DNA of 45,190 nt, from sequence record PZ050807.1; one strand, 5' to 3'. Both the position numbers and the translations under genes were made by a program. Below, in pieces: positions 3,895-44,651 of the stretch. The first letter of the stretch is position 1. The number at the start of each line of letters is the position of its first letter. The notes beneath the pieces were generated by a model, which was not told where the DNA came from, did no database searches, and saw nothing but the letters and a program-made list of their open reading frames with translations. This stretch comes from a phage.

Positions 3895-3932
3895 TGGTTA
3901 ATATAGTGCAACCAAATACGGATTGCAACCAA
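3895..3932 (-). promoter_or_regulatory. Sigma70-type early promoter (minus strand): -35 TTGCAA, 17-nt spacer ending in ATTGGTTGCAC, -10 TATATT
   Basis: Read on the minus strand: TTGCAA(3928..3923)-17 nt-TATATT(3905..3900); two copies of the TTGGTTGCA motif. Confidence 0.55.
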
Positions 3933-4154
3933 TTATTTTAATTCCTCAATCAAATTGGCACGGACAATACGGGCCGAGAAGGCATCGCACACAAGATGGC
4001 AACGCGCCGTCATGACAAGCCAGCCGGTTAGGTCACGGCCTAGCAATTGCTCCGGGCGGCTTACCCGCAATACTTTATTTCCAGGGAAAACCAGGTAACG
4101 TTTAATGATCTCATCCACGACGCGCGGACTGCGATCGACGACTAAGATATTCAT
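3933..4154 (-). CDS. Hypothetical protein, 73 aa
   Basis: Strong RBS AAGGAGA upstream of the ATG at 4154; overlaps the 3' end of the methyltransferase ORF by 44 nt. Confidence 0.45.
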   Translation of the reverse strand: MNILVVDRSPRVVDEIIKRYLVFPGNKVLRVSRPEQLLGRDLTGWLVMTARCHLVCDAFSARIVRANLIEELK

Positions 4155-5310: not shown

Positions 5311-5352
5311 CGTCAAATCCTCATATTAAAAAAGGGCGTTCCCTTCAGAACA

Positions 5353-5390
5353 CCCCCAATATAATGCAACCAATCTCGCAATGCAACCAA
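5353..5390 (-). promoter_or_regulatory. Sigma70-type early promoter (minus strand) of the TTGGTTGCA family
   Basis: Minus strand: TTGCAT(5386..5381)-17 nt-TATATT(5363..5358); two TTGGTTGCA copies. Confidence 0.55.
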
Positions 5391-5394
5391 TTTA

Positions 5395-5715
5395 TTAGAA
5401 GAAATTTGGGTCGCTCATCACATCCACAAGATAAAGGTTGTTAAGGCGGTTGCCGTAATGGCCTGGCGTGCGCTGACGGCACACAACAGCGTAACCAGGG
5501 GGGATGGTATTTCCGGTCGCCAGAATCCACGCCACGCGCGCGCCGTTTAGTGATTTACCGTTGTATTCTATGCGGGTGCCGCCATCTGCAGTGTTAAGGC
5601 TGCCAATCTTCTGACCGGTAGAATTGAGACGGATAACACCAGTCTGGCTATCGTAATTAAACAGTTGTTTGGTCAGTGCTACCGAAAAATCAATTGGATC
5701 AAAGATAGTGTTCAT
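5395..5715 (-). CDS. HNH_3-like (homing-endonuclease-like) protein, possibly degenerate
   Basis: Resembles the HNH_3 pattern (GARVAWILATGNTIPPGYAVV...GNRLNNLYLV) but the expected His residues are replaced. Confidence 0.4.
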   Translation of the reverse strand: MNTIFDPIDFSVALTKQLFNYDSQTGVIRLNSTGQKIGSLNTADGGTRIEYNGKSLNGARVAWILATGNTIPPGYAVVCRQRTPGHYGNRLNNLYLVDVMSDPNFF

Positions 5716-8327: not shown

Positions 8328-8606
8328 TTATGCGACCAATTCCGCAACCAATAAATCAGCGTCGTGAATGTTGTCGATTACGCGAACGTCGGCCCCGCGC
8401 TTCGCCATGCGCTCATGTTCACGTACCTGGTGCGGCTTCGGCTTACCACCGGGGCGCTTCACTTCAACGAATACGACTCTGCCGTTGATGATGATAATCA
8501 GGTCGGGGGCGCCGGTACGCCCTTCCCATGCCATTTTACGGCAGAATCCACCTGCCTCTTTTACCTCTTTCATCAGGTGACTTTGCACCTTGCCTTCAGG
8601 AGTCAT
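8328..8606 (-). CDS. VRR-NUC domain nuclease
   Basis: PDLIIIINGRVVFVEVKRPGGKPKPHQ matches the VRR-NUC (PD-(D/E)XK) signature; TAATG overlap with the polymerase stop. Confidence 0.6.
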   Translation of the reverse strand: MTPEGKVQSHLMKEVKEAGGFCRKMAWEGRTGAPDLIIIINGRVVFVEVKRPGGKPKPHQVREHERMAKRGADVRVIDNIHDADLLVAELVA

Positions 8607-11891: not shown

Positions 11892-11987
11892 TTTCCAATT
11901 CCTCATTTCACATGTATCGGGGTTATTAGAAGCCACCCCGTCCGGCTTGGTTGCTAATGTACTTGGTTGCGTTTCCGCGGTCAAGTG

Positions 11988-12222: not shown

Positions 12223-13644
12223 GCCCAAATCCTCGTCGCTTGCTTCTTGCCATTCCGGGCGCGGGTCGTCAACTGGTGCCAGGACCGGTTTCGCCGGCGC
12301 ACGCGTGATTTTATCTTGCAGTTTCGCCCACACTTTCGGTTTCTCATCCTTCAGCACCTTCTCGGCATCAGTAGGGCTGATTAATGATTCCTTGTACATC
12401 AGGTCGCGCTTGATCCGGGCCGTTGTGAATACGGCGATAACTTCGCTTTCATCCTTCCACTTACGCGCACCTTCACGACCAGCTACCAGCTTCAGGCCCA
12501 GCGCTTCGCCGTCACCGGCTAACACTGCTTTGAATACGGCAGCCTCGATCGCTTTGATGTGCTGGCGCATGGTTTCCAGGCCGTCGTAAGCCTTCTTCAG
12601 TTCTTCCGTGGTCATAGCACCGGCTGGCGCTTCTTTCTTTCCACGCTTCGCACGTCGGGCAGCTTTCCGAGCTTCGAGGTCCATGTTCTGGTCGTGGTTT
12701 TTGCATTCTTCCTCGGCGGCAATGCTTACATCGTCACCCAGGTCTTCGTCGGTTGCCGTTGGTGGCGTTATTGTGTCGATGGCGGCTTTAGCGCGGGCAC
12801 TACATTGGTCCGCAAATCGACACCACTGACACGCATCGGCGCTCGGACGGAAGTCTGCACGGGTGAGATTCTTCTTACCCTTAGCGAGGGCATCCAGGGC
12901 GGCTACTGCGCGTTTTGCTGCGTACTTGGCGAAGATTTCCAGTGCTTCCACCGAAATATCCCACTCCGACGCCCCGCCGCAATACGGCTGGAATATGACC
13001 AGGCGCACGGTTGTTATGTCGTACATCTTTTGCAGCTTGCGCAGCAGTCCGAGCGCATACAGCATAAGCTGTTTGTTCTCTTTCGCCTCGACCTTATGGC
13101 GTCCGGTCTTCAGGTCGCCCACAATGAGCATGTACGTGCCGTCGGTCTTCTTCATCACCATAACCATATCGGCAGTACCGAAGGTCTTGATCGCTTCGCC
13201 GTCAATCTCGTAGCCTTTGTGCAGGACGCGAGTCAGATCCGCGCGCATCTCAAGCTGGACAAACTCGGCAACTTCAAGCAGCGGTCGCCAGTGGTCGATG
13301 TACGCGTCGCACTGTTTCACCATGTCGTCAGTTACCAGGATGGCGTCCTTAGGTGCTTTCGCTGCCGCTTTAACTGGTCCTTTACCCTGATTTTCGACGT
13401 AGCACCCTTTATATGTCTTCGCCGTGATGTGGTCTTCGCCTGCAATGATGCGGTTTAGTACCACTTCAGATACGGTGTGCATACTCGTACCGTTGATCGC
13501 GGCTTGCCCGGATTCGTTCGGAATACCTTTCTCCACCACCAGGGCGGCGGGACACCCCATCCATTTTTTAGCGCCGGATGGGCCAAGTAATGAGTGTTCT
13601 GTATTACTGCCGGATTGCGTCTTGCGCTTCGCTTTGATAGCCAT
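12214..13644 (-). CDS. PD-(D/E)XK exonuclease, Cas4/RecB-like with Cys cluster (recombination exonuclease)
   Basis: Nuclease core TADMVMV...LIVGDLKTG...QLMLYAL; cysteines in CQWCRFADQC; long charged C-terminal extension. Confidence 0.7.
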   Translation of the reverse strand: MAIKAKRKTQSGSNTEHSLLGPSGAKKWMGCPAALVVEKGIPNESGQAAINGTSMHTVSEVVLNRIIAGEDHITAKTYKGCYVENQGKGPVKAAAKAPKDAILVTDDMVKQCDAYIDHWRPLLEVAEFVQLEMRADLTRVLHKGYEIDGEAIKTFGTADMVMVMKKTDGTYMLIVGDLKTGRHKVEAKENKQLMLYALGLLRKLQKMYDITTVRLVIFQPYCGGASEWDISVEALEIFAKYAAKRAVAALDALAKGKKNLTRADFRPSADACQWCRFADQCSARAKAAIDTITPPTATDEDLGDDVSIAAEEECKNHDQNMDLEARKAARRAKRGKKEAPAGAMTTEELKKAYDGLETMRQHIKAIEAAVFKAVLAGDGEALGLKLVAGREGARKWKDESEVIAVFTTARIKRDLMYKESLISPTDAEKVLKDEKPKVWAKLQDKITRAPAKPVLAPVDDPRPEWQEASDEDLGDE

Positions 13645-13832
13645 TATTCGACCCTCGTAAATTGAGCAATATAATAATCATGCTTAATTCCTGCTTTCGC
13701 CGCGGCGTTATTCATTGTCGCGGCCAGTTCTTTCGCTTGCATCCAGCAACAATTCCAGTTCTGATTCATAATTATTTCCGGCTGTTCGTCGCCGGTGTTA
13801 CGGCAGCGAAATAAAACAAAGAAAATACTCAT
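13644..13832 (-). CDS. Hypothetical small protein, 62 aa
   Basis: TAATG overlaps at both ends imply translational coupling. Confidence 0.35.
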   Translation of the reverse strand: MSIFFVLFRCRNTGDEQPEIIMNQNWNCCWMQAKELAATMNNAAAKAGIKHDYYIAQFTRVE

Positions 13833-14083
13833 TATGGCGTCTCCCAACGGTCAATAGTTTTTGCTTCAGACCCAACTGCAAAGCGAACATATTCGTGATT
13901 CGAGTCCGCCCATAAATAAAAGTCTGGATTAGCGAAGGTCGTGCGTTTAATTTGTGCCGGTGTTTCCCGCTTCTTACTAATTACGGCAACGCGGGATTGA
14001 AAGGGGCCGGTGCGCTCGAATAGCCAGTAGTACGGGCGCTGGTCGCGCGAGTCCACCGCTTCAATTAATGTGAATCGTGCCAT
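13832..14083 (-). CDS. Hypothetical protein, 83 aa
   Basis: ORF in the early operon. Confidence 0.45.
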   Translation of the reverse strand: MARFTLIEAVDSRDQRPYYWLFERTGPFQSRVAVISKKRETPAQIKRTTFANPDFYLWADSNHEYVRFAVGSEAKTIDRWETP

Positions 14084-14096
14084 TGTCTCGTCTCTT

Positions 14097-14124
14097 TAAA
14101 AATAGGCCCGCAGAATAGCGGGCC
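14097..14124 (-). terminator. Intrinsic terminator or attenuator (minus strand) after the first early gene
   Basis: Hairpin GGCCCGC-TATTCT-GCGGGCC followed by TATTTTT on the minus strand. Confidence 0.5.
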
Positions 14125-14131
14125 TGGTATA

Positions 14132-14632
14132 TTAGTCTTCCAGTTCGAAATAGGTTTCGACAATTTCTTTCAGTTCGGTGTGGAAGTCTTCAACGTCGTC
14201 ATCTTCCAGCTTAGCCACAGTCTTGATTTCGAACGATTCCAGCAGGTCGTCAAATTCGTCGTTCGCGTCGTCATCGTCGCCGCCTGCAATGATTGCCGCG
14301 TATTGTGCAATTTCATCGCGCATTTCTTTCAGTGGATCGGCGTCTTTCTTAGCCTTGCCTTTGCCCTTGCCTTTGGCTGGCTTTTCTTCCGGTTCGTCTT
14401 CGTCGTCATCTTCTACGACTTCTTTTTTCGCCTTGCCCTTAGCCGTGGACTTCTTAGCAGGTTTCTTATCTTCCTGCTCGTCATCTTCGTCTTTGGCTTC
14501 TTCTTTCTTAGCCTTAGACGGTTTCTTATCTTCCTGCTTACCAACGGCAGCGCCATGGGTTTCGTAATGTTTAGCGATGGTTTCCAGTGCTACTACGCCG
14601 CGAGTAATCAGATTCAGGATTTGCTCAAACAT
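14132..14632 (-). CDS. Highly charged low-complexity protein (first gene of the leftward early operon)
   Basis: Start at MFEQIL (ATG 14632, RBS GGAGA); long K/E/D-rich region and acidic C-terminus (DDDDANDEFDDLLESF...EDDDVEDF). Confidence 0.5.
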   Translation of the reverse strand: MFEQILNLITRGVVALETIAKHYETHGAAVGKQEDKKPSKAKKEEAKDEDDEQEDKKPAKKSTAKGKAKKEVVEDDDEDEPEEKPAKGKGKGKAKKDADPLKEMRDEIAQYAAIIAGGDDDDANDEFDDLLESFEIKTVAKLEDDDVEDFHTELKEIVETYFELED

Positions 14633-14678
14633 GGTGTGTCTCCGTTTAGTTAAAAGTGAATGTCGTTTCGACGAGGTG

Positions 14679-14708
14679 AATAATAGATTGGTTGCAGGAT
14701 GGGTGTCA
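14679..14708 (-). promoter_or_regulatory. Leftward early promoter: -35 TTGACA, 18-nt spacer containing GCAACCAAT, -10 TATTAT
   Basis: Minus strand: TTGACA(14708..14703)-18 nt-TATTAT(14684..14679). Confidence 0.55.
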
Positions 14709-14715
14709 ACAACTA

Positions 14716-14753
14716 ATTTAAAAAAAAATCCCCGAAGCAAAACGCAACGGGGA
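14716..14753 (-). terminator. Terminator-like hairpin plus T-run (minus strand) upstream of the leftward promoter
   Basis: Minus strand: CCCCGTTGCGTTTTGCTTCGGGG followed by TTTTTTTTT. Confidence 0.4.
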
Positions 14754-14823
14754 TAACCATAAGAGACAATGAGACTGGTTTTATTATTACACGCGCGCGC
14801 ACCCGTTTCAATATACAAAACAG

Positions 14824-14852
14824 TTGACACCGGTTTAATTTGGGTGTAGTTT
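14824..14852 (+). promoter_or_regulatory. Candidate rightward promoter: TTGACA-17 nt-TAGTTT
   Basis: Consensus -35; weak -10. Confidence 0.35.
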
Positions 14853-14883
14853 CTTTGGTCATTAACCAACAGGAGACTGAATT

Positions 14884-15177
14884 ATGAATACGACTAAATT
14901 GAATGCTTTGTTAGATATGGTTGAGAATGGTGTTGATGTTGGTGCGGCCCGCGACGCTATTAACGTTGCGTTCAAAGACCTGGCCTACAAACTGGAATTA
15001 CTGAACGGTACGGCGGCGAGCAAGCTGCAAAAGCATAACGAAGAAATGGAAGAATACAAAAAGCAGGTTATCAGACTGCGCGAAGAGGGTAAGTCCTGGG
15101 CAATGATTGCCGAGCTAACAGGCATTAATCAAAGCACTGTACGCTCCTGGGTACGCAATGCTAAAACCGCTAAGTAA
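14884..15177 (+). CDS. Small HTH DNA-binding protein (putative transcriptional regulator)
   Basis: C-terminal helix-turn-helix SWAMIAELTGINQSTVRSWVRN; RBS AGGAGA. Confidence 0.55.
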   Translation: MNTTKLNALLDMVENGVDVGAARDAINVAFKDLAYKLELLNGTAASKLQKHNEEMEEYKKQVIRLREEGKSWAMIAELTGINQSTVRSWVRNAKTAK

Positions 15178-15189
15178 GGACTTGAGAAG

Positions 15190-17454
15190 ATGAGAAATAT
15201 AGAATTTGCGATCACACCCCCCGCTAAGAAAGGCGAATCTGCGGTAGCTCATAACCAGTCCATGACTACCGCCGAGTTTTTCGAATTTATCCAGGATGCA
15301 CCGGTAGTGTCGTCAGTTTGCATTAACGGTACTGAAGATAAAAAAGAATATGCGCGACGTAAGCGTAAAGGCGACGGCATTGTGGCTACAACCGCCGATG
15401 GCACGCGTAAAAAGACTGGCGTGGTTAGCCGCTCGATCCTGTTCTTCGACCTGGACCGTGCTGACAACCGCACACTTACCCGCTGCCGCAGGGCTTTCCG
15501 CAAGTCCGGCCTGGAATATGTCTACCACACCACCACCGGCGACCGCCACCCGTTGAAAGACGGCAAGCGCTGTGTGCGTTTCCTGGTGCTGACAAACAAG
15601 CCAGTTCCGGCGGAAGACTTGGGTCGCGCGCAGGCTGCACTGCTTGAGCAACTGGGTCTTACCGACGCGGGCTTTGATGACTGCTCGAAAGACACAAACC
15701 GCCTTATGTACCTGCCCCACCAGCAGGCTAAGGTCGAGTGTCATGAGGGTGAACGCGCTAACGTGCGTCGTCTGCTTCGCCTGGCTGACAAGATGGGTAT
15801 TGAGCAGGAAACGTTTCGCCGTGAACTGGTGCAGGGCGACGACGAGCAGATGAACGGCATCCTCGACTGGTGTTTCCAGGCTGGTTTTGAGCCGTTACCA
15901 TCCGGGCGCGGTTATGAAGTACCGTGCCCAAACGAACATCTGCACTCTGGTGAAGGGTCTACCGCTATCATGCTTAAGGATGGCGAGATTCGTTTCAAAT
16001 GTATGCACACCGGCAACGGATGCTGTTCTGAACTGAACAAACACCAACACCTGGCGCTGCGAATGATTGGTATCCCGGATATTTATAACGTGGAACCTCA
16101 CAACATGTCGCGCAAACAGATCTCGGCAATCCTGCCCGGACTGGACGATGAAGAAGTGGACGCGCAGTATGAGCACATGGTCGATCTGGTTGGCGAAGGT
16201 GAGGATTATGCGTCCTGTACTGACGCAGACCTGGAAGACGAACCAACGGCACTGTTCTCTAAACACGACCCGATCATCGAAGGTCTGATTAACTTCAAAT
16301 CGACCTGGTACGCAGCGGGTGAGTCGAACATTGGTAAATCCTTCTACATCCTGGGTCAGATGGCTGCCGTTGCCGCGGGCATCCCGTTCGGGGGCGCGAA
16401 GGTCGTCCAGTCGCATTGCTTCTACTTCGATGCGGAAGGTGGCGAGGCGTCCATCCAGCGTAAAGAAGCATTGCAGATTAAATATGAGCATGATCTTGAC
16501 AAGCTGCACATTGTTGACCTTCAGGCACGCGGCTGGGATATTACGAGCAAATCCGGCCTGCGTGAAGTAATCAGCTTTATCAACCGCACAGCGGATGGGG
16601 AACCGGTCGGCCTGGTGGCGTTCGACTCCCTTAACCAGACCGTGGCCCTGCGCTCGGCAGATGCCAAACCGTTCGACGAGAACAACGCAAGCGATATGGG
16701 TGAGATTGTCAAAGCGCTGAAGTCCATTGCGGAAAACACAGGAGGCAGTGCGGGCGTCATTCACCACCCGGCGAAGGGTGCAAACGGCAGCCGATCCCCG
16801 CGTGGGTCCGGTGCGCTACATGGCGCGGTGGATTCTGCATTCTTCCTGGAACAGCCAGACGAGAATCAGCCCGGACAGCTTAACCTGTATCATGAGAAAG
16901 CCCGTAACGGCGTAAAACAGGGTCCACGCGGCTTCGTACTACTTAAGTGCAAAGTGTCCATTAACGAGCGCAAGTCCGACACGTTCGAAGCGCACCAGTC
17001 CACTAACCCTGGTCCAGACTTCGGCGATGTGGTTGCCGGTTGGGACGTCAAGCCAATCCAGGCCACCCCGCGTGATGAGACTCTGTACCTTGTACCGGTA
17101 GCTCTGGCCCCGTTCGCTATCGAACAGGCGAAGGCCGCGGGCAAGCAGGCTGTTAAGGAAGAAAACCCCGCCGGTCCGCGCAATGAAAAAGAGAAAGTGC
17201 TTTACGCAGCGCTCGAAGCGTTGATGGAAGAGAATCCGGGACACCATGGCTTCAGCAAATCGGCAATCGTCCGCAAAGCCGGACTGGCGAAAGGTGGCAC
17301 ATCGACGAAGCCAATAGACGATATGCGTGAGCGCGGAATCATCGGCTTTTACAAAGACCCTGACACCGGGGCCATTTACGGGTCGTCGAATCTGGTTATC
17401 AATTCACAAATACCTATGCAATTGACGGCGACGGACGACGACCTTAAAGATTAA
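15190..17454 (+). CDS. DNA primase / replicative helicase fusion (primase-like N-terminal domain plus P-loop ATPase)
   Basis: Walker A GESNIGKSFYILG, Walker B LVAFDSLNQ; N-terminal primase-like region with Cys/His cluster (CPNEHLHSGEGS...CMHTGNGCC). Confidence 0.8.
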   Translation: MRNIEFAITPPAKKGESAVAHNQSMTTAEFFEFIQDAPVVSSVCINGTEDKKEYARRKRKGDGIVATTADGTRKKTGVVSRSILFFDLDRADNRTLTRCRRAFRKSGLEYVYHTTTGDRHPLKDGKRCVRFLVLTNKPVPAEDLGRAQAALLEQLGLTDAGFDDCSKDTNRLMYLPHQQAKVECHEGERANVRRLLRLADKMGIEQETFRRELVQGDDEQMNGILDWCFQAGFEPLPSGRGYEVPCPNEHLHSGEGSTAIMLKDGEIRFKCMHTGNGCCSELNKHQHLALRMIGIPDIYNVEPHNMSRKQISAILPGLDDEEVDAQYEHMVDLVGEGEDYASCTDADLEDEPTALFSKHDPIIEGLINFKSTWYAAGESNIGKSFYILGQMAAVAAGIPFGGAKVVQSHCFYFDAEGGEASIQRKEALQIKYEHDLDKLHIVDLQARGWDITSKSGLREVISFINRTADGEPVGLVAFDSLNQTVALRSADAKPFDENNASDMGEIVKALKSIAENTGGSAGVIHHPAKGANGSRSPRGSGALHGAVDSAFFLEQPDENQPGQLNLYHEKARNGVKQGPRGFVLLKCKVSINERKSDTFEAHQSTNPGPDFGDVVAGWDVKPIQATPRDETLYLVPVALAPFAIEQAKAAGKQAVKEENPAGPRNEKEKVLYAALEALMEENPGHHGFSKSAIVRKAGLAKGGTSTKPIDDMRERGIIGFYKDPDTGAIYGSSNLVINSQIPMQLTATDDDLKD

Positions 17455-17461
17455 AATTTGC

Positions 17462-17542
17462 GCGCATTGGTTGCCAATATGGTTAATTTGTGCGCGCATT
17501 GGTTGCCAGATTGGGCATTAAATCTATATCGCATTGGTTGCC
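17462..17542 (+). repeat. Three direct iterons GCGCATTGGTTGCC spaced about 35 bp apart (candidate origin or operator array)
   Basis: Repeat copies at 17462, 17494 and 17530, immediately after the primase-helicase stop. Confidence 0.6.
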
Positions 17543-17580
17543 GTGTAGTGCTAAATAAGTGAATAGTTATGCAAAATAAG

Positions 17581-17755
17581 TGCATAAAACAAACGGGACA
17601 AAAACGGGACAAACGACAAACGGGACAAAACGGGACGTCCCGCCGTCCCCCTCAGGAGTGGCGCGGGTTTGAGGCAAACGGGACAAGCGGGACAGACCAC
17701 AGTCTTTCAGACTAGACGGGGGGTATGGTCCCCCCTCCGTCTGAGACTGCATAAA
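17581..17755. repeat. Structured non-coding element A: ACGGGACA iterons, CGGGACGTCCCG palindrome and a long stem-loop; paralogue of 34104..34440
   Basis: Direct comparison with copy B: about 150 bp near-identical. Confidence 0.6.
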
Positions 17756-17907
17756 AGCTCTGGTTGCATAATCAACGGCAGCATAGTGAAAAATGCGGCG
17801 GGGGTAGATCTCGGCAACCAATGCGAGTTGAAGAGTGGAGAGTGAAAAATGCAGTTTGCAATTGCAACTCATAGCGATCAGCATTTTCATGCGCGTGATT
17901 AATATTG

Positions 17908-17936
17908 GTTGCACCCACCTTGGCACCTTGCTATAT
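17908..17936 (+). promoter_or_regulatory. Rightward promoter of the TTGGTTGCA family: -35 TTGCAC, 17 nt, -10 TATATT
   Basis: TTGCAC(17908..17913)-17 nt-TATATT(17931..17936). Confidence 0.5.
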
Positions 17937-17965
17937 TGGCTGCACACCATCATGAGGACTGAACA

Positions 17966-18292
17966 ATGAAAAAATTAATCTGGGTTTACGCGTTGGCGGT
18001 GGCTAAGGAGCAAGAAGCGGCAGCGTATATCACCCCGTGCAGTTATGCAGTCGAACGCTTGGAAGCGGCCCAGGCCGTTGTCCGGGTGATGAAGCGCGCA
18101 ATCATCGGTAGGCTGGAGGACCGATTCGACACGATGGCAGAGATCCAGCCACTGGCGAACGCAATCCAGGACTACGCGCTTGCATTTGCCCGTGAACGCC
18201 TGGCATACCGGTTTGGTATCGGGGAAACGGCAGTGGCTAACATCGCCCGCATTCAGGCCCAGCGTGAGCTGCACGCCATACTCGCGAAATAA
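17966..18292 (+). CDS. Hypothetical protein, 108 aa
   Basis: ORF downstream of the promoter. Confidence 0.5.
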   Translation: MKKLIWVYALAVAKEQEAAAYITPCSYAVERLEAAQAVVRVMKRAIIGRLEDRFDTMAEIQPLANAIQDYALAFARERLAYRFGIGETAVANIARIQAQRELHAILAK

Positions 18293-18571
18293 GTGGCCAA
18301 AATGACACGCAGACGCGCTCAATGGCTTTCATGGCACATTCCCCTACATAGCATCCGTTTATGGGCGCAGAACGCGATTGAGGGCGATTCTGTGTTCTGG
18401 AGCTATCTGGATGACGTCAAGCCGCTGACGCAGACCAGAAAGCTGCACCAGTTCATGAACGAACACGGACTGCCGGTGAAAACGTCATTGCAACCAATCG
18501 GCATCCGTATTACATTACGCCGTAAGCCAATCGTTGAGCAGGTTGGCAAACACAGGAGACTGACAAAATGA
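18293..18571 (+). CDS. Hypothetical protein, about 90 aa
   Basis: ORF; start is GTG 18293 or ATG 18302. Confidence 0.4.
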   Translation: MAKMTRRRAQWLSWHIPLHSIRLWAQNAIEGDSVFWSYLDDVKPLTQTRKLHQFMNEHGLPVKTSLQPIGIRITLRRKPIVEQVGKHRRLTK

Positions 18572-21118: not shown

Positions 21119-21203
21119 TGCTTGACCTGCAACCAATTAATAGCTCATACTTCTGTCGCCGTGGTATATTGATCGCGGTCAAACTGAATCAGGAAAATAT
21201 ACG

Positions 21204-28449: not shown

Positions 28450-28479
28450 TGTTGTTTCCTCGTTTGTTGGTGTGCAACC

Positions 28480-28508
28480 AATATATTGCAACCAATTAGC
28501 CAATGCAA
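28480..28508 (-). promoter_or_regulatory. Early-type promoter (minus strand): -35 TTGCAT, 17 nt with ATTGGTTGCAA, -10 TATATT
   Basis: Minus strand: TTGCAT(28508..28503)-17 nt-TATATT(28485..28480). Confidence 0.5.
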
Positions 28509-28515
28509 GCAAATT

Positions 28516-33412: not shown

Positions 33413-33775
33413 ATGGCTAAACAATCCCTTTTCACCCTCGACCCAAAACCGACTTTCAAGCTGCCGATTGAAATCCCGCGTCCGGGCGAGAAAGAGCCGG
33501 GTAAGCTGACTTTCACCGTCCGCCACCGTCCGATCGACGAGTTCTCGCAGACCATGCAGGAGACTGAACGCAAGCTGTCAGAGTATGACCAGAATGACCC
33601 GGACGGCTTTAACGTTATGGTCGAGGCCATCATGCATGTGGCTGAAGGCTGGAATCTGCCGGATGAGTTCACTGAAGAGAACGTACGCCGCCTGGTGGTG
33701 AACTATCCGCGTGCGTTCGGCGTGTTCCATACGTCGTACTATCTCGAATTGATGGGCTTGCGTGAAAAAAACTAA
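33413..33775 (+). CDS. Tail assembly chaperone (lambda gpG-like)
   Basis: Position immediately upstream of the tape measure; slippery site at its 3' end. Confidence 0.6.
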   Translation: MAKQSLFTLDPKPTFKLPIEIPRPGEKEPGKLTFTVRHRPIDEFSQTMQETERKLSEYDQNDPDGFNVMVEAIMHVAEGWNLPDEFTEENVRRLVVNYPRAFGVFHTSYYLELMGLREKN

Positions 33776-34089
33776 TTGAGGCGGCGCGACGCTTCTATGG
33801 TCCGCCGCCACCGTCCGAAGACCTTGCCGCTAGTTTATGGGGTGCGGCCCCCGAAGATATTTGTCCGCCAGTTGCATTATGGCCTGATAACGTACAGGTC
33901 GTTGCCGTTTTCACTGACTGCTCAACGCAGTGGCGCACCGGTTTTAACGGAGCATACGGCATCGACTACGGCGTGCTGGAATGGCTATTTAAAATGCACG
34001 GCATCGAAAATGAGAAGCGAGCTTTTAAAGATATCAAGTTAATGGAGCGTATTGCACTCGACGAAATTGCAGCACAACAGGCCGGGTAA
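33766..34089 (+). CDS. Tail assembly chaperone extension (gpT-like), expressed as a G-T fusion by -1 programmed frameshift at A_AAA_AAC
   Basis: Heptamer A AAA AAC at 33766..33772; the -1 frame is open from 33766 to the TAA at 34087..34089. Confidence 0.5.
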   Translation, partial: KKLIEAARRFYGPPPPSEDLAASLWGAAPEDICPPVALWPDNVQVVAVFTDCSTQWRTGFNGAYGIDYGVLEWLFKMHGIENEKRAFKDIKLMERIALDEIAAQQAG

Positions 34090-34103
34090 TTCCGGCCTTT
34101 TTC
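34080..34103 (+). terminator. Intrinsic terminator after the GT chaperone ORF
   Basis: GGCCGG-GTAATT-CCGGCC followed by TTTTT. Confidence 0.6.
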
Positions 34104-34106
34104 ATA

Positions 34107-34430
34107 GCGGGACAGCGGGACGTCCCGTTTTTGTCCCGCTGTCCCGCCCCGCCAAAAACTGCATACCTATTCAGAAATACTGCATAAAACCAAAACGGGA
34201 CAAAAACGGGACAAGCAGGACGTCCCGCCTCAAAAGTGCATATCTATGCAGTTTTCATGCATAAAACGAACGGGACAAAAACGGGACAAACTGCAAGCGG
34301 GACAGAGCGGGACGTCCCGCCGTCCCTGCCAGAGCTGCCGCGGGTTTCAGCCGATCGGGACAGGCGGGACAAAGCCAAGTCTTTCAGACTAGACGGGGGT
34401 CAATGGCCCCCTCCGTCTGAGACTGAATAA
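34107..34430. repeat. Structured non-coding element B: GGGAC/GTCCC iterons, palindromes and a conserved stem-loop; paralogue of 17581..17755
   Basis: Several ACGGGACA iterons, three GGGACGTCCC palindromes, 13-bp inverted repeat GCGGGACAGCGGG/CCCGCTGTCCCGC, hairpin at 34378..34425. Confidence 0.6.
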
Positions 34431-34492
34431 GGTTGGTTGCAAAATGACTGATACAATACAAACGGCAACTTGCATAAAAAGGGGACTGCATA

Positions 34493-37135
34493 ATGGCAGA
34501 TCAAGCGGCAGGCATCACGCTAAAGGCGGATGTTGCACAAATCAGAACGGCGAATACTGTGCTTGATTCATTCGCACAGAAATCCGAGAACACAGAAAAC
34601 AAGGTTAAGAAGTTAAACAACACCCTCGGCAAATCTAAAAAGGTGACGAGTGATGCCGCTGGCGGAATGGAAAAGCTGGCGAACGAATCGCATCGAGCAG
34701 CCGATGGCATGACGAAACAGGAGCGACTCGCCAACCGGTTAGGCATGTCGACCAAAAACCTGGGCTTTGCCTCGCATAACGCCGCATTCCAGTTACAGGA
34801 TATAGCGGTTACGCTTGAGATGGGTATGCCGGTGCACCGCGTCATGCTTCAGCAGTTACCACAGCTTACTGGGGCGTTCGGTGGGTTTGGTAACACGCTG
34901 CGTTATGTTGCTGGCTTCCTCGGCCCAGTAGGGATCGGAATTGCAGCACTAACGGCAACGTTAGGCGTAGGGGTGGCAATTACGACACGTGCCGAAAACC
35001 AGGTAGCAGCGCTTAACAAGACGCTGGCGCTATCCGGTAACATTTCCGGCCTAACTGCAAACCAGATCCTGGTGCTATCCGAGAACGCCGAGCGCATGGG
35101 CGGGTCGTTCCGCAAGACGCGTGACACAATCCAGGCGCTGGCGGCGGCGGGTGTGAAAGCGGGTGCAGACTTCGGCACGCTGGCGAAAGTGGTGAATGAT
35201 TTTGCGAAGGTGTCCAGCCAGCCGATCGAGGATGTGGTCGCGGCGGTGGCGAAGCTGTCTACCGACCCGGTAGGTGGCTTGCGAGCATTGGCTGATAAGT
35301 ATCACGTCGTAAACGAAGCGCAGATCCAGCAGGTGCAGTCACTAGTGACGGCTGGTCGCGAAACCGAAGCGGTGGCGCTGGCTAACAAAACAGCCGCAGC
35401 GTCGTTTACCACTATGACCAATGAGATCAAGTCCAACATGGGTACGCTTGAGCGGTCGATGAACGTCGTTACATCGGCAGCTAAATCTATGTGGGATGCC
35501 ATCCTGGATGTTGGACGCGCGCAGTCCTCGAATGAGTCAGAGATGAAAGCGCGTGAATCATTGCAGCGACTGACCACGGCTTACTATGCCGAGATGAAAG
35601 CGGTAAACGCTGCCGGTGGGGTGATGACCGAAGCGCAGAAAGCGCGTATTAACATGCTTTACAGCGAACTGGTCGCCCAGGAGAAGGTGGTGGCGTCGCT
35701 CACCATGCGCAACCGTGCCGAGCGGGACAACGCCAGCGCCGCGGACGCAGCAGCAAAGGCGAACGAAGAGGCAAACCGCACCGCCCGCGACCGCGCTGCG
35801 TTTGAGAAGGAGTACGCAACCAACGCGAAGAGGCGCGCCGACGAGATCGCCCGCCTCAATTTGCTTAATAAGCGCGGCGTGATTGACGAGAAAGAGCTTG
35901 CCGAGGCGGTGAAGCAGGTAAACGAGCGTTACAAAGACCCCGCCCCGAAGAAGGCCGCCGCTGTTCGAGTCGATGCCGGGCTGAAAATGCTGGAAGTAGC
36001 ACGGAGCGAACTGGCACAGCTTCGTGAGTCTGGAAAGCAGATCGAAGCCAACTCCTCGACGCAGACCCGAACGCAACGCGCGCAAGCGGCCCTGAACAAG
36101 CTGATCGCGGATAATGAGCAGTTAATCGCCGCAAGCAAAGAAAGAGCACTAACGGCAGCCGAAAAGCAGCAGATGGTCGAATTCGGACGCGTGAAGGAAG
36201 TACGCGAGCAGATCGTCGAAGAAGCCAAATTGCTGGACGCGAAAGAGAAGCAGGTCAAGGCGCACGCGCAGATCGACGCCTTCGTTAAGAACCAGAACGC
36301 CGAGCTAAAAGCCACCGCGGCGGGCTATGCGCTTTCCACTCGCGAAGCGGCAAACCTGCGTGAAGAATTGCAGCTAATTGACCGCCTGAAGCGGGTGGGC
36401 GCTAGTGATGCCGATATTGATCTGGCGGTGTCTAAACTGCGCGAAGTGCAGGAAGCACAGACCGGTGCTAACGCCTCACTATGGGATGGATTCAGCCGTG
36501 GGCTTAAGGATAGCGTGGATGAAATGGGTAACGGCTATACGCAGATGGTATCGGCAACGAAATTTACATTCGGCGCTATGATGGACACGATGAATGAATT
36601 TTTCGAGACTGGTAAATTCAACGCGAAGGAAATGATTAAATCCATCCTGAGCGAATTTATCAAGCTGGCTACCTCGCAGGCGTTCAAGTCCGTAATCAAC
36701 GCATTCGGCGGTGACGGTGGGAAGAATGGTCTGTTCGGGGCAATCTTCTCCGGTCTGACGAAGAATGCCGACGGTGGAGCGTACGCTGGCGGCAACCTGT
36801 CCGCATATTCCGGTCAGATCGTAAGCCAGCCAACCTTTTTCAATTACGGCGTTAAGGCGTTCGCTAACGGCGCGGGATTGATGGGTGAGGCTGGGCCGGA
36901 GGCCATCATGCCGCTGAAGCGCGGGCCGGACGGTAAACTGGGCGTTGCCGCAAGTGGGGCTGGTGGTGGTATCGTCGTGACAACGAACGTGAACATGGGT
37001 ACAGGGCAGGCTGACACCAGCGTTAAAGGGACCGACCCGCGAATGGGGCAGGTATTCGGCAAGCAGATCACGGAAGCGGTTAAGGCCGAAATCGTGAAAG
37101 CGACTAAACCAGGTGGAGTACTTTACAAACGATGA
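34493..37135 (+). CDS. Tail tape measure protein
   Basis: 880 aa, coiled-coil rich, downstream of G/GT chaperones and upstream of tail-tip genes. Confidence 0.85.
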   Translation: MADQAAGITLKADVAQIRTANTVLDSFAQKSENTENKVKKLNNTLGKSKKVTSDAAGGMEKLANESHRAADGMTKQERLANRLGMSTKNLGFASHNAAFQLQDIAVTLEMGMPVHRVMLQQLPQLTGAFGGFGNTLRYVAGFLGPVGIGIAALTATLGVGVAITTRAENQVAALNKTLALSGNISGLTANQILVLSENAERMGGSFRKTRDTIQALAAAGVKAGADFGTLAKVVNDFAKVSSQPIEDVVAAVAKLSTDPVGGLRALADKYHVVNEAQIQQVQSLVTAGRETEAVALANKTAAASFTTMTNEIKSNMGTLERSMNVVTSAAKSMWDAILDVGRAQSSNESEMKARESLQRLTTAYYAEMKAVNAAGGVMTEAQKARINMLYSELVAQEKVVASLTMRNRAERDNASAADAAAKANEEANRTARDRAAFEKEYATNAKRRADEIARLNLLNKRGVIDEKELAEAVKQVNERYKDPAPKKAAAVRVDAGLKMLEVARSELAQLRESGKQIEANSSTQTRTQRAQAALNKLIADNEQLIAASKERALTAAEKQQMVEFGRVKEVREQIVEEAKLLDAKEKQVKAHAQIDAFVKNQNAELKATAAGYALSTREAANLREELQLIDRLKRVGASDADIDLAVSKLREVQEAQTGANASLWDGFSRGLKDSVDEMGNGYTQMVSATKFTFGAMMDTMNEFFETGKFNAKEMIKSILSEFIKLATSQAFKSVINAFGGDGGKNGLFGAIFSGLTKNADGGAYAGGNLSAYSGQIVSQPTFFNYGVKAFANGAGLMGEAGPEAIMPLKRGPDGKLGVAASGAGGGIVVTTNVNMGTGQADTSVKGTDPRMGQVFGKQITEAVKAEIVKATKPGGVLYKR

Positions 37136-44599: not shown

Positions 44600-44628
44600 A
44601 ATATAGTGCAACCAATACGTGATTGCAA
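44600..44628 (-). promoter_or_regulatory. Early-type promoter (minus strand): -35 TTGCAA, 17 nt with ATTGGTTGCAC, -10 TATATT
   Basis: Minus strand: TTGCAA(44628..44623)-17 nt-TATATT(44605..44600). Confidence 0.55.
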
Positions 44629-44651
44629 CCAATTTATGAGGAGTTTTCGCT

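What the first reader, a model, noticed from the sequence alone, without database searches (positions are those of the whole stretch)
14633..14883. Divergent early control region with a terminator placed upstream of the leftward promoter
A 250-bp intergenic region holds a leftward near-consensus promoter (14679..14708), a candidate rightward promoter (14824..14852) and, between them, a minus-strand hairpin plus nine-T run (14716..14753) that would stop antisense read-through from the rightward operon before it reaches the leftward promoter. The first rightward gene is a small HTH protein. The arrangement resembles a genetic switch, although no integrase or repressor is present.
Basis: partly seen in the sequence, partly recalled or inferred. 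Interest (0 to 1): 0.45.

Follow-up and report, generated by a model that had tools for sequence, protein, structure and literature searches.

The report
Early control region hiding small RNA gene
The gap between the two gene arms of this virulent E. coli phage (a Dhillonvirus) holds not two but three host-type promoters, and the odd terminator most likely ends a conserved, roughly 56-base non-coding RNA, comparable to the OOP RNA of phage lambda, that nobody has annotated.

Summary
The window is a complete Dhillonvirus genome, and 14633-14883 is its only point of gene divergence. The leftward promoter (TTGACA-18-TATTAT, 14709..14680) is the best sigma-70 match in the genome. The rightward one (TTGACA-17-TAGTTT, 14824..14852) has conserved hexamers and a variable spacer. 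The minus-strand hairpin plus U-run (14754..14720) keeps its pairing through two compensatory changes.

Promoter and terminator together define a ~56-nt leftward transcript (14776..~14721). Its 23-nt 5' tail is invariant in 22 distinct relatives, and that conservation starts at the predicted start site.

Guernseyvirinae-like phages carry an analogous cassette of leftward promoter, short RNA and terminator just upstream of the primase-helicase gene. There it lies inside the rightward operon, like lambda pO/oop.

So the terminator ends a small RNA. It is probably not merely an insulator.

The RNA's target is inferred only. In most relatives the tail pairs with the ribosome-binding regions of both first genes, but pairing is weak in this window and shows no covariation. 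No expression data exist.

A genome-wide promoter-linked motif, TTGGTTGC, has one copy inside the leftward promoter.

The parts
14132..14632 (-). First gene of the leftward arm (166 aa, acidic and Lys-rich, function unknown). SD GGAGAC at 14643..14638, ATG at 14632.
   Evidence: phrog_3127, E = 7.7e-51. The ATG and SD are conserved in all relatives.
14680..14709 (-). P_L, the leftward early promoter: TTGACA (14709..14704), 18 nt, TATTAT (14685..14680). Predicted start near 14673.
   Evidence: 11/12. Only such match in the window. The -10 variants in relatives (TATTAT, TATCAT, TAATAT) all keep TA...T.
14687..14695 (+). One copy of the genome-wide motif ATTGGTTGC, lying inside the P_L spacer next to the -10. 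Candidate operator.
   Evidence: TTGGTTGC occurs 21 times in the window against 1.4 expected. The other copies sit in TTGCA(A/T)-17-TATATT promoters or in promoter spacers. This copy is invariant in 22 relatives.
14710..14727 (-). T-run followed by AAATTAG on the minus strand. It is the U-tract of the terminator and, at about -37 to -55 of P_L, an UP-element-like A/T tract.
   Evidence: Sequence. 17 of 22 alignment columns are invariant and the run is 8-12 nt long. The UP-element role is inference.
14728..14754 (-). Terminator hairpin: AUCCCCG / CGGGGAU, with an inner GC/GC pair around a 5-nt loop.
   Evidence: Two pairs are kept through changes on both sides (U-A to G-C, C-G to G-C) and none is broken.
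14720..14776 (-). Predicted ~56-nt non-coding RNA: a 5' single-stranded tail AGUCUCAUUGUCUCUUAUGGUUA, the hairpin and a U8 tail.
   Evidence: The start is inferred as 7 nt after the -10 hexamer. 21 of 23 tail columns are invariant, against 0 of 8 in the segment between the -10 and the start. No reading frame is conserved on either strand. No Rfam match.
14783..14811 (-). P_M, a third promoter: TTGAAA (14811..14806), 17 nt, AATAAT (14788..14783), preceded by TGn.
   Evidence: 10/12 with TG. -10 invariant at 6/6 and -35 at 5/6. Indels fall just outside the spacer, except in one relative (L026) with a 2-nt spacer deletion.
14824..14852 (+). P_R, the rightward promoter: TTGACA, 17 nt, TAGTTT. Predicted start near 14859.
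   Evidence: hexamers conserved, spacer variable. Its -35 and that of P_L lie within a perfect 9-bp inverted repeat, GGTGTCAAC / GTTGACACC.
14862..14883 (+). Ribosome-binding region of the HTH gene, TTAACCAACAGGAGAC. It resembles the leftward gene's region (14653..14638) and the + strand of the RNA tail (14754-14767).
   Evidence: Inverted repeat I2. Duplex energies.
14884..15177 (+). Small HTH protein (97 aa), first gene of the rightward arm, followed by the primase-helicase gene (15190-17454).

Best explanation
The 250-bp gap is the main early control region of a virulent Dhillonvirus, and it contains three host sigma-70-type promoters.

P_L (strong, with an UP-like tract) drives the 11-kb leftward DNA-metabolism arm. 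P_R drives the rightward arm, beginning with the HTH protein and the primase-helicase. Back-to-back with P_R, a third promoter, P_M, fires leftward. Its polymerase is stopped about 56 nt later by the hairpin and U-run.

The 'terminator upstream of the leftward promoter' is therefore the 3' end of a small non-coding RNA gene. This cassette of leftward promoter, short RNA and intrinsic terminator sits next to the replication genes and is positionally analogous to pO/oop of phage lambda. As a side effect the terminator keeps P_M polymerases, and any other leftward polymerases, from running over P_L.

Shown in silico: the elements exist, their conservation footprint fits this reading, the hairpin covaries, and the cassette recurs in distant relatives.

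Inferred: that the RNA is made, and what it does. My preferred mechanism is antisense pairing of its invariant C/U-rich 5' tail with the ribosome-binding region of the first rightward gene, and more weakly with that of the first leftward gene. This would lower translation of the early operons.
For: P_M and the terminator.
- P_M scores 10/12 with TGn. The window holds only 11 matches of at least 10/12 across 90 kb of strand, so finding one within the 60 nt upstream of a terminator on the same strand has a chance of about 0.007.
- The conservation footprint in 22 distinct sequences fits promoter plus RNA. P_M -10 is invariant at 6/6, its -35 at 5/6 and the RNA tail at 21/23. The start-to--10 gap is invariant at 0/8 and the segment between the two -35s at 5/13. 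Indels fall outside the P_M spacer.
- The hairpin has z = -3.6 and two compensatory pairs.
- The + strand mini-ORF (ATG 14769) changes frame or truncates among relatives. A minus-strand ATG exists only in the window clade. The region is therefore non-coding.

Recurrence in distant relatives.
- All 10 loci with 37-45% primase-helicase identity, and Salmonella phage Shemara, have an A-run plus GC hairpin that acts as a minus-strand terminator. The stems differ in sequence.
- Each also has a minus-strand promoter of 8-10/12 at or just upstream of the primase start.
- Per-locus chance is 0.01-0.2, across at least 5 lineages.
- The predicted RNAs are 71-87 nt and have a C/U-rich single-stranded segment.

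Pairing with the first genes.
- In phage 'rolling' the HTH gene's ribosome-binding region is the best non-self site genome-wide (-23.4 kcal/mol) and ranks first of 60 gene starts.
- The 8-mer TAACCAAT occurs only 4 times in that genome, all within 280 bp of this region.
- Most relatives give -16 to -23 kcal/mol for the rightward target and -17.7 for the leftward one.

Lambda pO/oop is described as a short leftward antisense transcript next to the origin, directed opposite to pR, in PMC3985674.
Against: - There are no expression data of any kind, and no paper on Dhillonvirus promoters or small RNAs was found.
- One close relative (L026) has a 2-nt deletion that shortens the P_M spacer to 15 nt, so the RNA may be dispensable there.
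- The hairpin covariation amounts to one evolutionary split (the window clade against the rest).
- On the target: in this window the pairing is unremarkable. The rightward site scores -14.8 to -17.6 kcal/mol (the -14.8 value lies at about the 1.5th percentile of 30-nt windows) and the leftward site -11.9 to -13.2 (-11.9 at about the 7th percentile).
- The RNA tail is invariant while the rightward ribosome-binding region varies, so nothing covaries.
- Two phages have a different rightward leader yet an unchanged RNA.
- No trans pairing stands out in the distant relatives.
- Unlike oop, the window's RNA overlaps no known sense transcript, because P_R lies downstream of it.
Confidence: 0.6

Rival explanations
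1. Insulator only. The terminator exists to stop leftward (antisense or pervasive) transcription arriving from the rightward arm before it occludes P_L. The short P_M transcript has no function of its own.
For: The T-run ends 10 nt from the -35 of P_L. The phage uses terminator-then-promoter junctions elsewhere, for example terminator 5357..5332 directly abutting a TTGCAT-17-TATATT promoter. A 10/12 minus-strand promoter at 17477 points into the primase gene and could feed antisense RNA polymerase.
Against: This view does not explain why a promoter sits about 22 nt upstream of the hairpin with hexamers and spacing conserved. It also does not explain why the 23 nt between the start site and the hairpin are the most conserved stretch of the region. 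Untranslated antisense transcripts crossing 2.6 kb would normally be ended by Rho before arriving (established knowledge).
Confidence: 0.17
2. DNA-level operators. The conserved block and the similar sequences at both gene starts (TAACCAA(T/C); reverse complement ATTGGTTA) are binding sites of a phage DNA-binding protein, plausibly the HTH protein. They would be related to the genome-wide ATTGGTTGC promoter motif. The resemblance between the RNA and the ribosome-binding regions would then be a by-product.
For: TTGGTTGC is about 15-fold over-represented and sits at fixed positions in promoters, including the P_L spacer. The four TAACCAAT copies in 'rolling' cluster in the control region. In most relatives the rightward copy is part of a palindrome, GTTGGT-CATTA-ACCAAC, over the P_R start. 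That palindrome is absent from the two phages with a different rightward leader, which carry a 149-aa variant of the HTH gene.
Against: The leftward copy keeps its distance to the SD and ATG, not to P_L. In many relatives a 135-nt insertion moves it about 155 nt from the promoter, yet it stays conserved, which points to an RNA-level role. The similarity extends beyond the motif into the SD-like GAGAC. This rival is compatible with the small RNA existing.
Confidence: 0.13
3. Tandem promoter with an attenuator. P_M is an upstream promoter of the leftward operon, and the hairpin is a regulated terminator that is read through when an antiterminator or another signal is present.
For: P_M, the terminator, P_L and the leftward genes are collinear on one strand.
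Against: No antiterminator gene, nut-like site or alternative anti-terminator fold was seen. The MFE structure shows only a weak extra 4-bp helix. The terminator is strong (a GC-rich 7-bp stem and 8-12 U). In the distant relatives the same cassette points into the 3' end of a convergent gene, not towards any leftward gene.
Confidence: 0.07

Closest known systems
Phage lambda pO / oop RNA (short leftward antisense transcript between cII and O; PMC3985674)
   Same: A short leftward transcript with its own sigma-70 promoter and an intrinsic terminator. It is directed opposite to the rightward early operon and lies next to the replication genes. In the Guernseyvirinae-like relatives the cassette lies inside the rightward operon, between an XRE-type HTH gene and the replication gene, in the position oop occupies between cII and O.
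   Different: There is no sequence or Rfam similarity. In this window the cassette lies upstream of P_R and abuts P_L, so it is not antisense to any identified transcript or gene. The phage is virulent and has no cII or lysogeny decision to tune. At about 56 nt the RNA is shorter than oop, which I recall as 77 nt (own knowledge).
Anti-ribosome-binding-site antisense RNAs of phage immunity systems (P1/P7 c4 RNA, P22 sar; own knowledge, not tested here)
   Same: A small phage RNA whose single-stranded segment is complementary to the ribosome-binding region of a regulatory or early gene encoded nearby.
   Different: Those RNAs belong to temperate-phage immunity circuits. c4 is processed from the same transcript as its target, and sar is fully antisense to its target. 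Here pairing would be in trans, imperfect (14-15 of 15-16 nt in most relatives and less in this window), and possibly with both divergent operons.
Lambdoid PL/PR immunity region (genetic switch)
   Same: Divergent early promoters a short distance apart, an HTH gene as the first rightward gene, and repeated candidate operator sequences.
   Different: There is no divergently transcribed CI-type repressor, no integrase and no tripartite operator. The HTH is of the sigma-region-4 / HTH_23 type rather than Cro- or CI-like.

Membership tests
Sigma-70 promoter (P_L, P_M, P_R) | -35 and -10 hexamers close to TTGACA and TATAAT, 16-18 bp apart | tested here: met
   P_L 11/12 and P_M 10/12 with TGn. P_R has 6/6 in the -35 but only 3/6 in the -10, keeping T1, A2 and T6.
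Sigma-70 promoter (P_L, P_M, P_R) | Hexamers and spacing conserved while flanks and spacers drift | tested here: met
   Exception: a 2-nt deletion in the P_M spacer of L026.
Sigma-70 promoter (P_L, P_M, P_R) | Transcription initiates there | not testable with these tools
   Needs dRNA-seq, 5' RACE or reporter fusions.
Intrinsic (Rho-independent) terminator | GC-rich stem-loop immediately followed by a U-tract on the transcribed strand | tested here: met
   A 7-bp stem with 5 G-C pairs, then U8 in the window and 8-12 U in relatives, on the minus strand only.
Intrinsic (Rho-independent) terminator | Structure maintained in evolution | tested here: met
   2 compensatory pairs and 0 broken among 10 pairs. 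Distant relatives have different GC stems in the same place.
Lambda oop-type antisense RNA | Short transcript with its own promoter and terminator, directed against the rightward early operon, beside the replication genes | tested here: met
   Met in silico only.
Lambda oop-type antisense RNA | Overlaps (is antisense to) a rightward transcript or the 3' end of a gene | tested here: not met
   In the window the RNA lies upstream of P_R and no conserved + strand ORF overlaps it. In the distant relatives it does lie inside the rightward operon.
Lambda oop-type antisense RNA | Sequence or structure homology to oop | tested here: inconclusive
   No Rfam family reached its threshold. I did not verify that Rfam holds an oop model.
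Trans-acting small RNA with an anti-Shine-Dalgarno seed | Accessible seed complementary to target ribosome-binding regions beyond chance | tested here: inconclusive
   Strong in 'rolling' (first of 60 gene starts) and moderate in most relatives. In this window the best rightward value, -14.8 kcal/mol, lies at about the 1.5th percentile and the leftward value, -11.9, at about the 7th.
Trans-acting small RNA with an anti-Shine-Dalgarno seed | Seed and target covary | tested here: not met
   The seed is invariant while the rightward target varies.
Lambdoid immunity switch | Repressor gene, integrase and operators overlapping both promoters | tested here: not met
   No repressor or integrase is annotated in Ioannina or 'rolling'. 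Only candidate operator-like repeats are present.

The most novel reading that the evidence does not exclude
A small RNA gene conserved across Dhillonvirus, and positionally across Guernseyvirinae, sits between the divergent early promoters of a strictly virulent phage. Through one anti-ribosome-binding-site seed it represses translation of the first cistron of both early arms at once (the HTH/primase-helicase arm and the DNA-metabolism arm). It would be a descendant of an oop-like cis-antisense RNA that has become trans-acting, working together with a phage factor that binds the genome-wide TTGGTTGC motif, to time early gene shut-off.
Probability: 0.15. Interest if true: 0.65.

Novelty: new member of a known kind. 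Interest (0 to 1): 0.45.

Why it matters
Dhillonviruses and Jersey-like phages are among the most commonly isolated E. coli and Salmonella siphophages. They are used in defence-system research and in phage therapy, yet their transcription programme is uncharted. I found no paper on their promoters or small RNAs.

If the RNA is real, genome annotations that currently place spurious protein-coding genes over this region should be corrected. Examples are Ioannina, GeorgBuechner, Bas85, SECphi18 and Shemara.

A conserved regulatory RNA beside the replication genes of virulent phages would extend the lambda oop theme beyond temperate phages. It would also give a concrete handle for engineering early gene expression: three promoters, one RNA and a recurrent operator-like motif.

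Tried and rejected
- A + strand mini-ORF (ATG 14769, 26 aa) with a ribosome-binding-like sequence. Rejected: relatives show three different frames or truncations.
- The 245-aa ORF 14132..14869 spanning the region, annotated as a CDS in Ioannina. Rejected: indels break the frame.
- A minus-strand peptide inside the RNA. Its ATG exists only in the window clade.
- Known RNA families. Rfam at gathering thresholds on the whole window and on 8 related loci, and with permissive E-values on 14600-14900, gave nothing meaningful.
- Trans targets of the analogous RNAs in distant relatives. No gene-start site stood out.
- Prophage or bacterial relatives of the primase-helicase in genome contigs. None found.
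- Whether two GenBank records that open near 14668-14675 mark a physical genome end. The SECphi18 record is circular, so its start is arbitrary.
- A weak + strand promoter overlapping P_L (TTGCAG-16-TAATTT, about 6/12), which would make the RNA a true cis-antisense. Too weak to claim.
- Literature searches for Dhillonvirus or Guernseyvirinae promoters, transcription or small RNAs. Only in-silico genome reports turned up.
- Host (E. coli) targets could not be searched with the available tools.

Full report
IDENTITY AND CONTEXT.
The window is an essentially complete genome of a Dhillonvirus. The closest record is Escherichia phage Ioannina (98% identity over 13600-15800), and 155 phage records match this stretch. 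In the fully annotated relative 'rolling', all genes left of the homologous gap are leftward (DNA polymerase, SSB, nuclease, helicase, methylases). Nearly all genes to the right are rightward (HTH protein, primase-helicase, lysis, terminase, structural genes). The ORF map of the window has the same layout. The finding therefore lies at the single divergence point of the genome. The leftward gene starts at ATG 14632 with SD GGAGAC, and the rightward gene at ATG 14884.

CHECKING THE OBSERVATION.
- The leftward promoter is TTGACA-18-TATTAT at 14709..14680, scoring 11/12. It is the only match of at least 11/12 on either strand of the window, where 0.34 is expected.
- The rightward candidate is TTGACA-17-TAGTTT at 14824-14852. 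Its -10 is poor, so the scan did not call it. Across 22 distinct relatives the -35 is invariant, the -10 is TAGTTT or TAGTAT, and the spacer drifts (4 of 17 positions invariant). That is the pattern expected of a promoter.
- The minus-strand hairpin (14754-14728) with its U8 tail folds at -16 kcal/mol (z = -3.6). RNAalifold finds 10 pairs, 2 kept through changes on both sides and none broken. The A/T run is 8-12 nt long in relatives. On the + strand no U-tract follows the hairpin, so it can terminate leftward transcription only.
- The first rightward protein has a C-terminal HTH (Sigma70_r4_2 and HTH_23, both above Pfam thresholds; phrog_9366).

The scan also reports a minus-strand promoter, TTGAAA-17-AATAAT preceded by TGn, at 14811..14783 (10/12). 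Only 11 matches of at least 10/12 exist in 90 kb of strand. One falling in the 60 nt upstream of a same-strand terminator therefore has a chance of roughly 0.007.

In relatives its -10 is invariant (6/6) and its -35 nearly so (5/6). Indels occur immediately outside the spacer on both sides but not inside it. The one exception is L026, which has a 2-nt deletion in the (CG)n spacer.

With a start 7 nt after the -10 (14776), the transcript runs to the U-run, about 56 nt in all. It consists of a 23-nt single-stranded tail (AGUCUCAUUGUCUCUUAUGGUUA), the hairpin and the U8 tail. The tail is the most conserved block of the whole gap (21 of 23 columns invariant). The 6-8 nt between the -10 and the start are the least conserved (0 of 8), so conservation begins at the predicted 5' end.

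Coding explanations fail.
- The + strand mini-ORF from ATG 14769 appears in three frames or truncated among relatives.
- The minus-strand ATG in the tail exists only in the window clade.
- The long ORF across the gap is broken by indels.
- No Rfam family matches.

RECURRENCE IN DISTANT PHAGES.
A search with the primase-helicase found ten viral contigs at 37-45% identity. They resemble Guernseyvirinae and related phages (Cornellvirus Shemara, FSL SP-031, VSiP, Kagunavirus, Pantoea AH01).

All ten, and Shemara itself, carry an A-run plus GC-rich hairpin just upstream of the primase-helicase gene. This is a minus-strand terminator. The stems differ in sequence, and in a few loci it is bidirectional. 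All also carry a minus-strand sigma-70-like promoter (8-10/12) at or just upstream of the primase start codon. Per-locus chance of such a promoter in the right place is 0.01-0.2, in at least five separate lineages. The predicted RNAs are 71-87 nt, typically a 5' stem-loop, a C/U-rich single-stranded linker and the terminator.

In these phages the cassette lies inside the rightward operon, after an XRE-type HTH gene, so the RNA would be perfectly antisense to the leader of the replication gene. This is the arrangement of lambda pO/oop: a short leftward transcript next to the replication genes, directed against pR transcription and antisense to cII (PMC3985674). In Shemara the cassette is annotated as a 46-aa CDS, which I regard as an annotation artefact.

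In Dhillonviruses the same kind of cassette instead abuts P_L, with P_R and a different HTH gene lying between it and the primase-helicase gene.

WHAT THE RNA MIGHT DO (INFERENCE).
The + strand of the tail (TAACCAATAAGAGAC in most relatives) resembles the ribosome-binding regions of both first genes: leftward TTAACCAATCGGAGAT and rightward TTAACCAA(C/T)AGGAGAC. The RNA could therefore pair with 14-15 of 15-16 nt covering the SD.

Evidence for this pairing:
- In 'rolling' the rightward site is the best non-self site in the genome (-23.4 kcal/mol) and ranks first of 60 gene starts. The leftward site ranks seventh.
- TAACCAAT occurs only four times in that genome, all within 280 bp here.
- Across relatives the energies are -14 to -23 kcal/mol (rightward) and -13 to -18 (leftward).

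Evidence against it:
- In this window the tail has lost one base and the leftward site has two substitutions. The scores are -14.8 to -17.6 and -11.9 to -13.2 kcal/mol, which is unremarkable.
- The tail is invariant while the rightward site varies, so nothing covaries.
- Two phages with a different rightward leader keep the RNA unchanged.

A DNA-level reading is also possible. The reverse complement, ATTGGTTA, resembles the genome-wide motif ATTGGTTGC. In most relatives the rightward copy is also half of a palindrome, GTTGGT-CATTA-ACCAAC, over the P_R start. Against a purely DNA-level role, the leftward copy keeps its distance to the start codon rather than to the promoter when a 135-nt insertion intervenes.

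THE SWITCH QUESTION.
TTGGTTGC occurs 21 times in the window (1.4 expected) and 22 times in 'rolling', at syntenic places. Tandem copies 14-17 bp apart form the -35 (TTGCAA or TTGCAT) and the region just upstream of the -10 (TATATT) of at least four promoters: 3928..3900, about 5390..5358, about 28510..28470 and 44628..44600. Inverted copies lie in the spacers of promoters with strong -35 hexamers, including P_L (14687-14695), 11984..11956 and 21122..21151.

This looks like the site of a phage-encoded regulator, and the HTH protein next door is the obvious but untested candidate. The region is regulatory and may be switch-like in timing. It is not a lysis-lysogeny switch: no repressor or integrase is annotated in relatives.

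VERDICT.
The best explanation is a three-promoter early control region containing an unannotated small RNA gene, for which the hairpin is the terminator (confidence about 0.6). Its regulatory mechanism is inferred only.

Rivals: insulator only (0.17), DNA operators (0.13) and attenuator (0.07).

It is a new member of a known kind (phage small RNA cassettes of the oop type) and of moderate interest. All claims about activity await transcript mapping.

Noticed in passing
window 3908-3933, 5366-5391, 8332-8352, 11947-11970, 14687-14695, 17466-17541, 17814-17912, 18490-18498, 21129-21137, 28474-28507, 34433-34440, 44608-44633: The 8-mer TTGGTTGC (fuller form ATTGGTTGCA) occurs 21 times against 1.4 expected, and 22 times in phage 'rolling' at syntenic sites. 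Tandem copies form the -35 and the pre--10 region of TTGCA(A/T)-17-TATATT promoters. Inverted copies sit in the spacers of promoters with TTGAC(A/C) -35 hexamers. This is probably the binding site of a phage regulator or a promoter-specificity element.
   Followed up: partly
window 17454-17966: A large gap after the primase-helicase gene holds three direct repeats, GCGCGCATTGGTTGCC, spaced 32-35 bp apart (17467, 17499, 17534), plus two further motif copies. It also holds a 10/12 minus-strand promoter at 17477 pointing antisense into the primase gene. The repeats are candidate origin iterons or a middle promoter cluster.
   Followed up: no
window 34090-34370 and 17619-17649: Clusters of CGGGAC(A/G) repeats on both strands lie in the 33775-34493 gap upstream of the tape-measure gene and near 17630. 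They surfaced as spurious duplex hits.
   Followed up: no
L002 674-810, L004, L006, L010, L011 (homologous to an insertion between window 14653 and 14654): Most Dhillonviruses carry a conserved ~135-nt insertion in the 5' leader of the leftward operon. This window and about a third of relatives lack it. It shows one compensatory change, CCAGG/CCUGG to CCCGG/CCGGG, which RNAalifold's consensus did not pair. No Rfam match.
   Followed up: partly
window 14884-14965: The first ~27 codons of the HTH gene differ completely from those of Ioannina and other relatives (97 aa against 109 aa; the PHROG match covers residues 28-97 only). This indicates a recombination breakpoint at the start codon. Two relatives (L009, L018) carry a 149-aa variant with the same C-terminal HTH type.
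   Followed up: partly
window 14132-14869 (-); L001 3533-4267; L004 155-853 and 945-1055; L005 730-924; L052 14-177; L053 1624-1764: Public annotations place protein-coding genes over the non-coding control region: a 245-aa extension of the leftward gene in Ioannina and GeorgBuechner, small ORFs in Bas85 and SECphi18, and a 46-aa CDS over the RNA cassette in Shemara. Indels and frame changes argue that they are artefacts.
   Followed up: yes
window 5332-5400 (-): There is a second terminator-then-promoter junction. The intrinsic terminator 5357..5332 is directly abutted by a TTGCAT-17-TATATT motif promoter whose predicted start falls inside the 5' arm of the stem. Transcripts from that promoter would therefore escape the terminator.
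   Followed up: partly
window 14702-14710 and 14823-14831; 14827-14847: The -35 hexamers of P_L and P_R lie in a perfect 9-bp inverted repeat, GGTGTCAAC / GTTGACACC, 112 bp apart. Inside P_R, ACACC...GGTGT flanks the spacer and is kept in relatives with the standard rightward leader, but not in L009 and L018.
   Followed up: partly
window 14789-14805: The spacer of the third promoter is an unusually conserved alternating CG tract, CACGCG(C/T)GCGCGCCCG (13 of 17 positions invariant). One close relative (L026) has lost one CG unit. The reason for the conservation is unknown.
   Followed up: no
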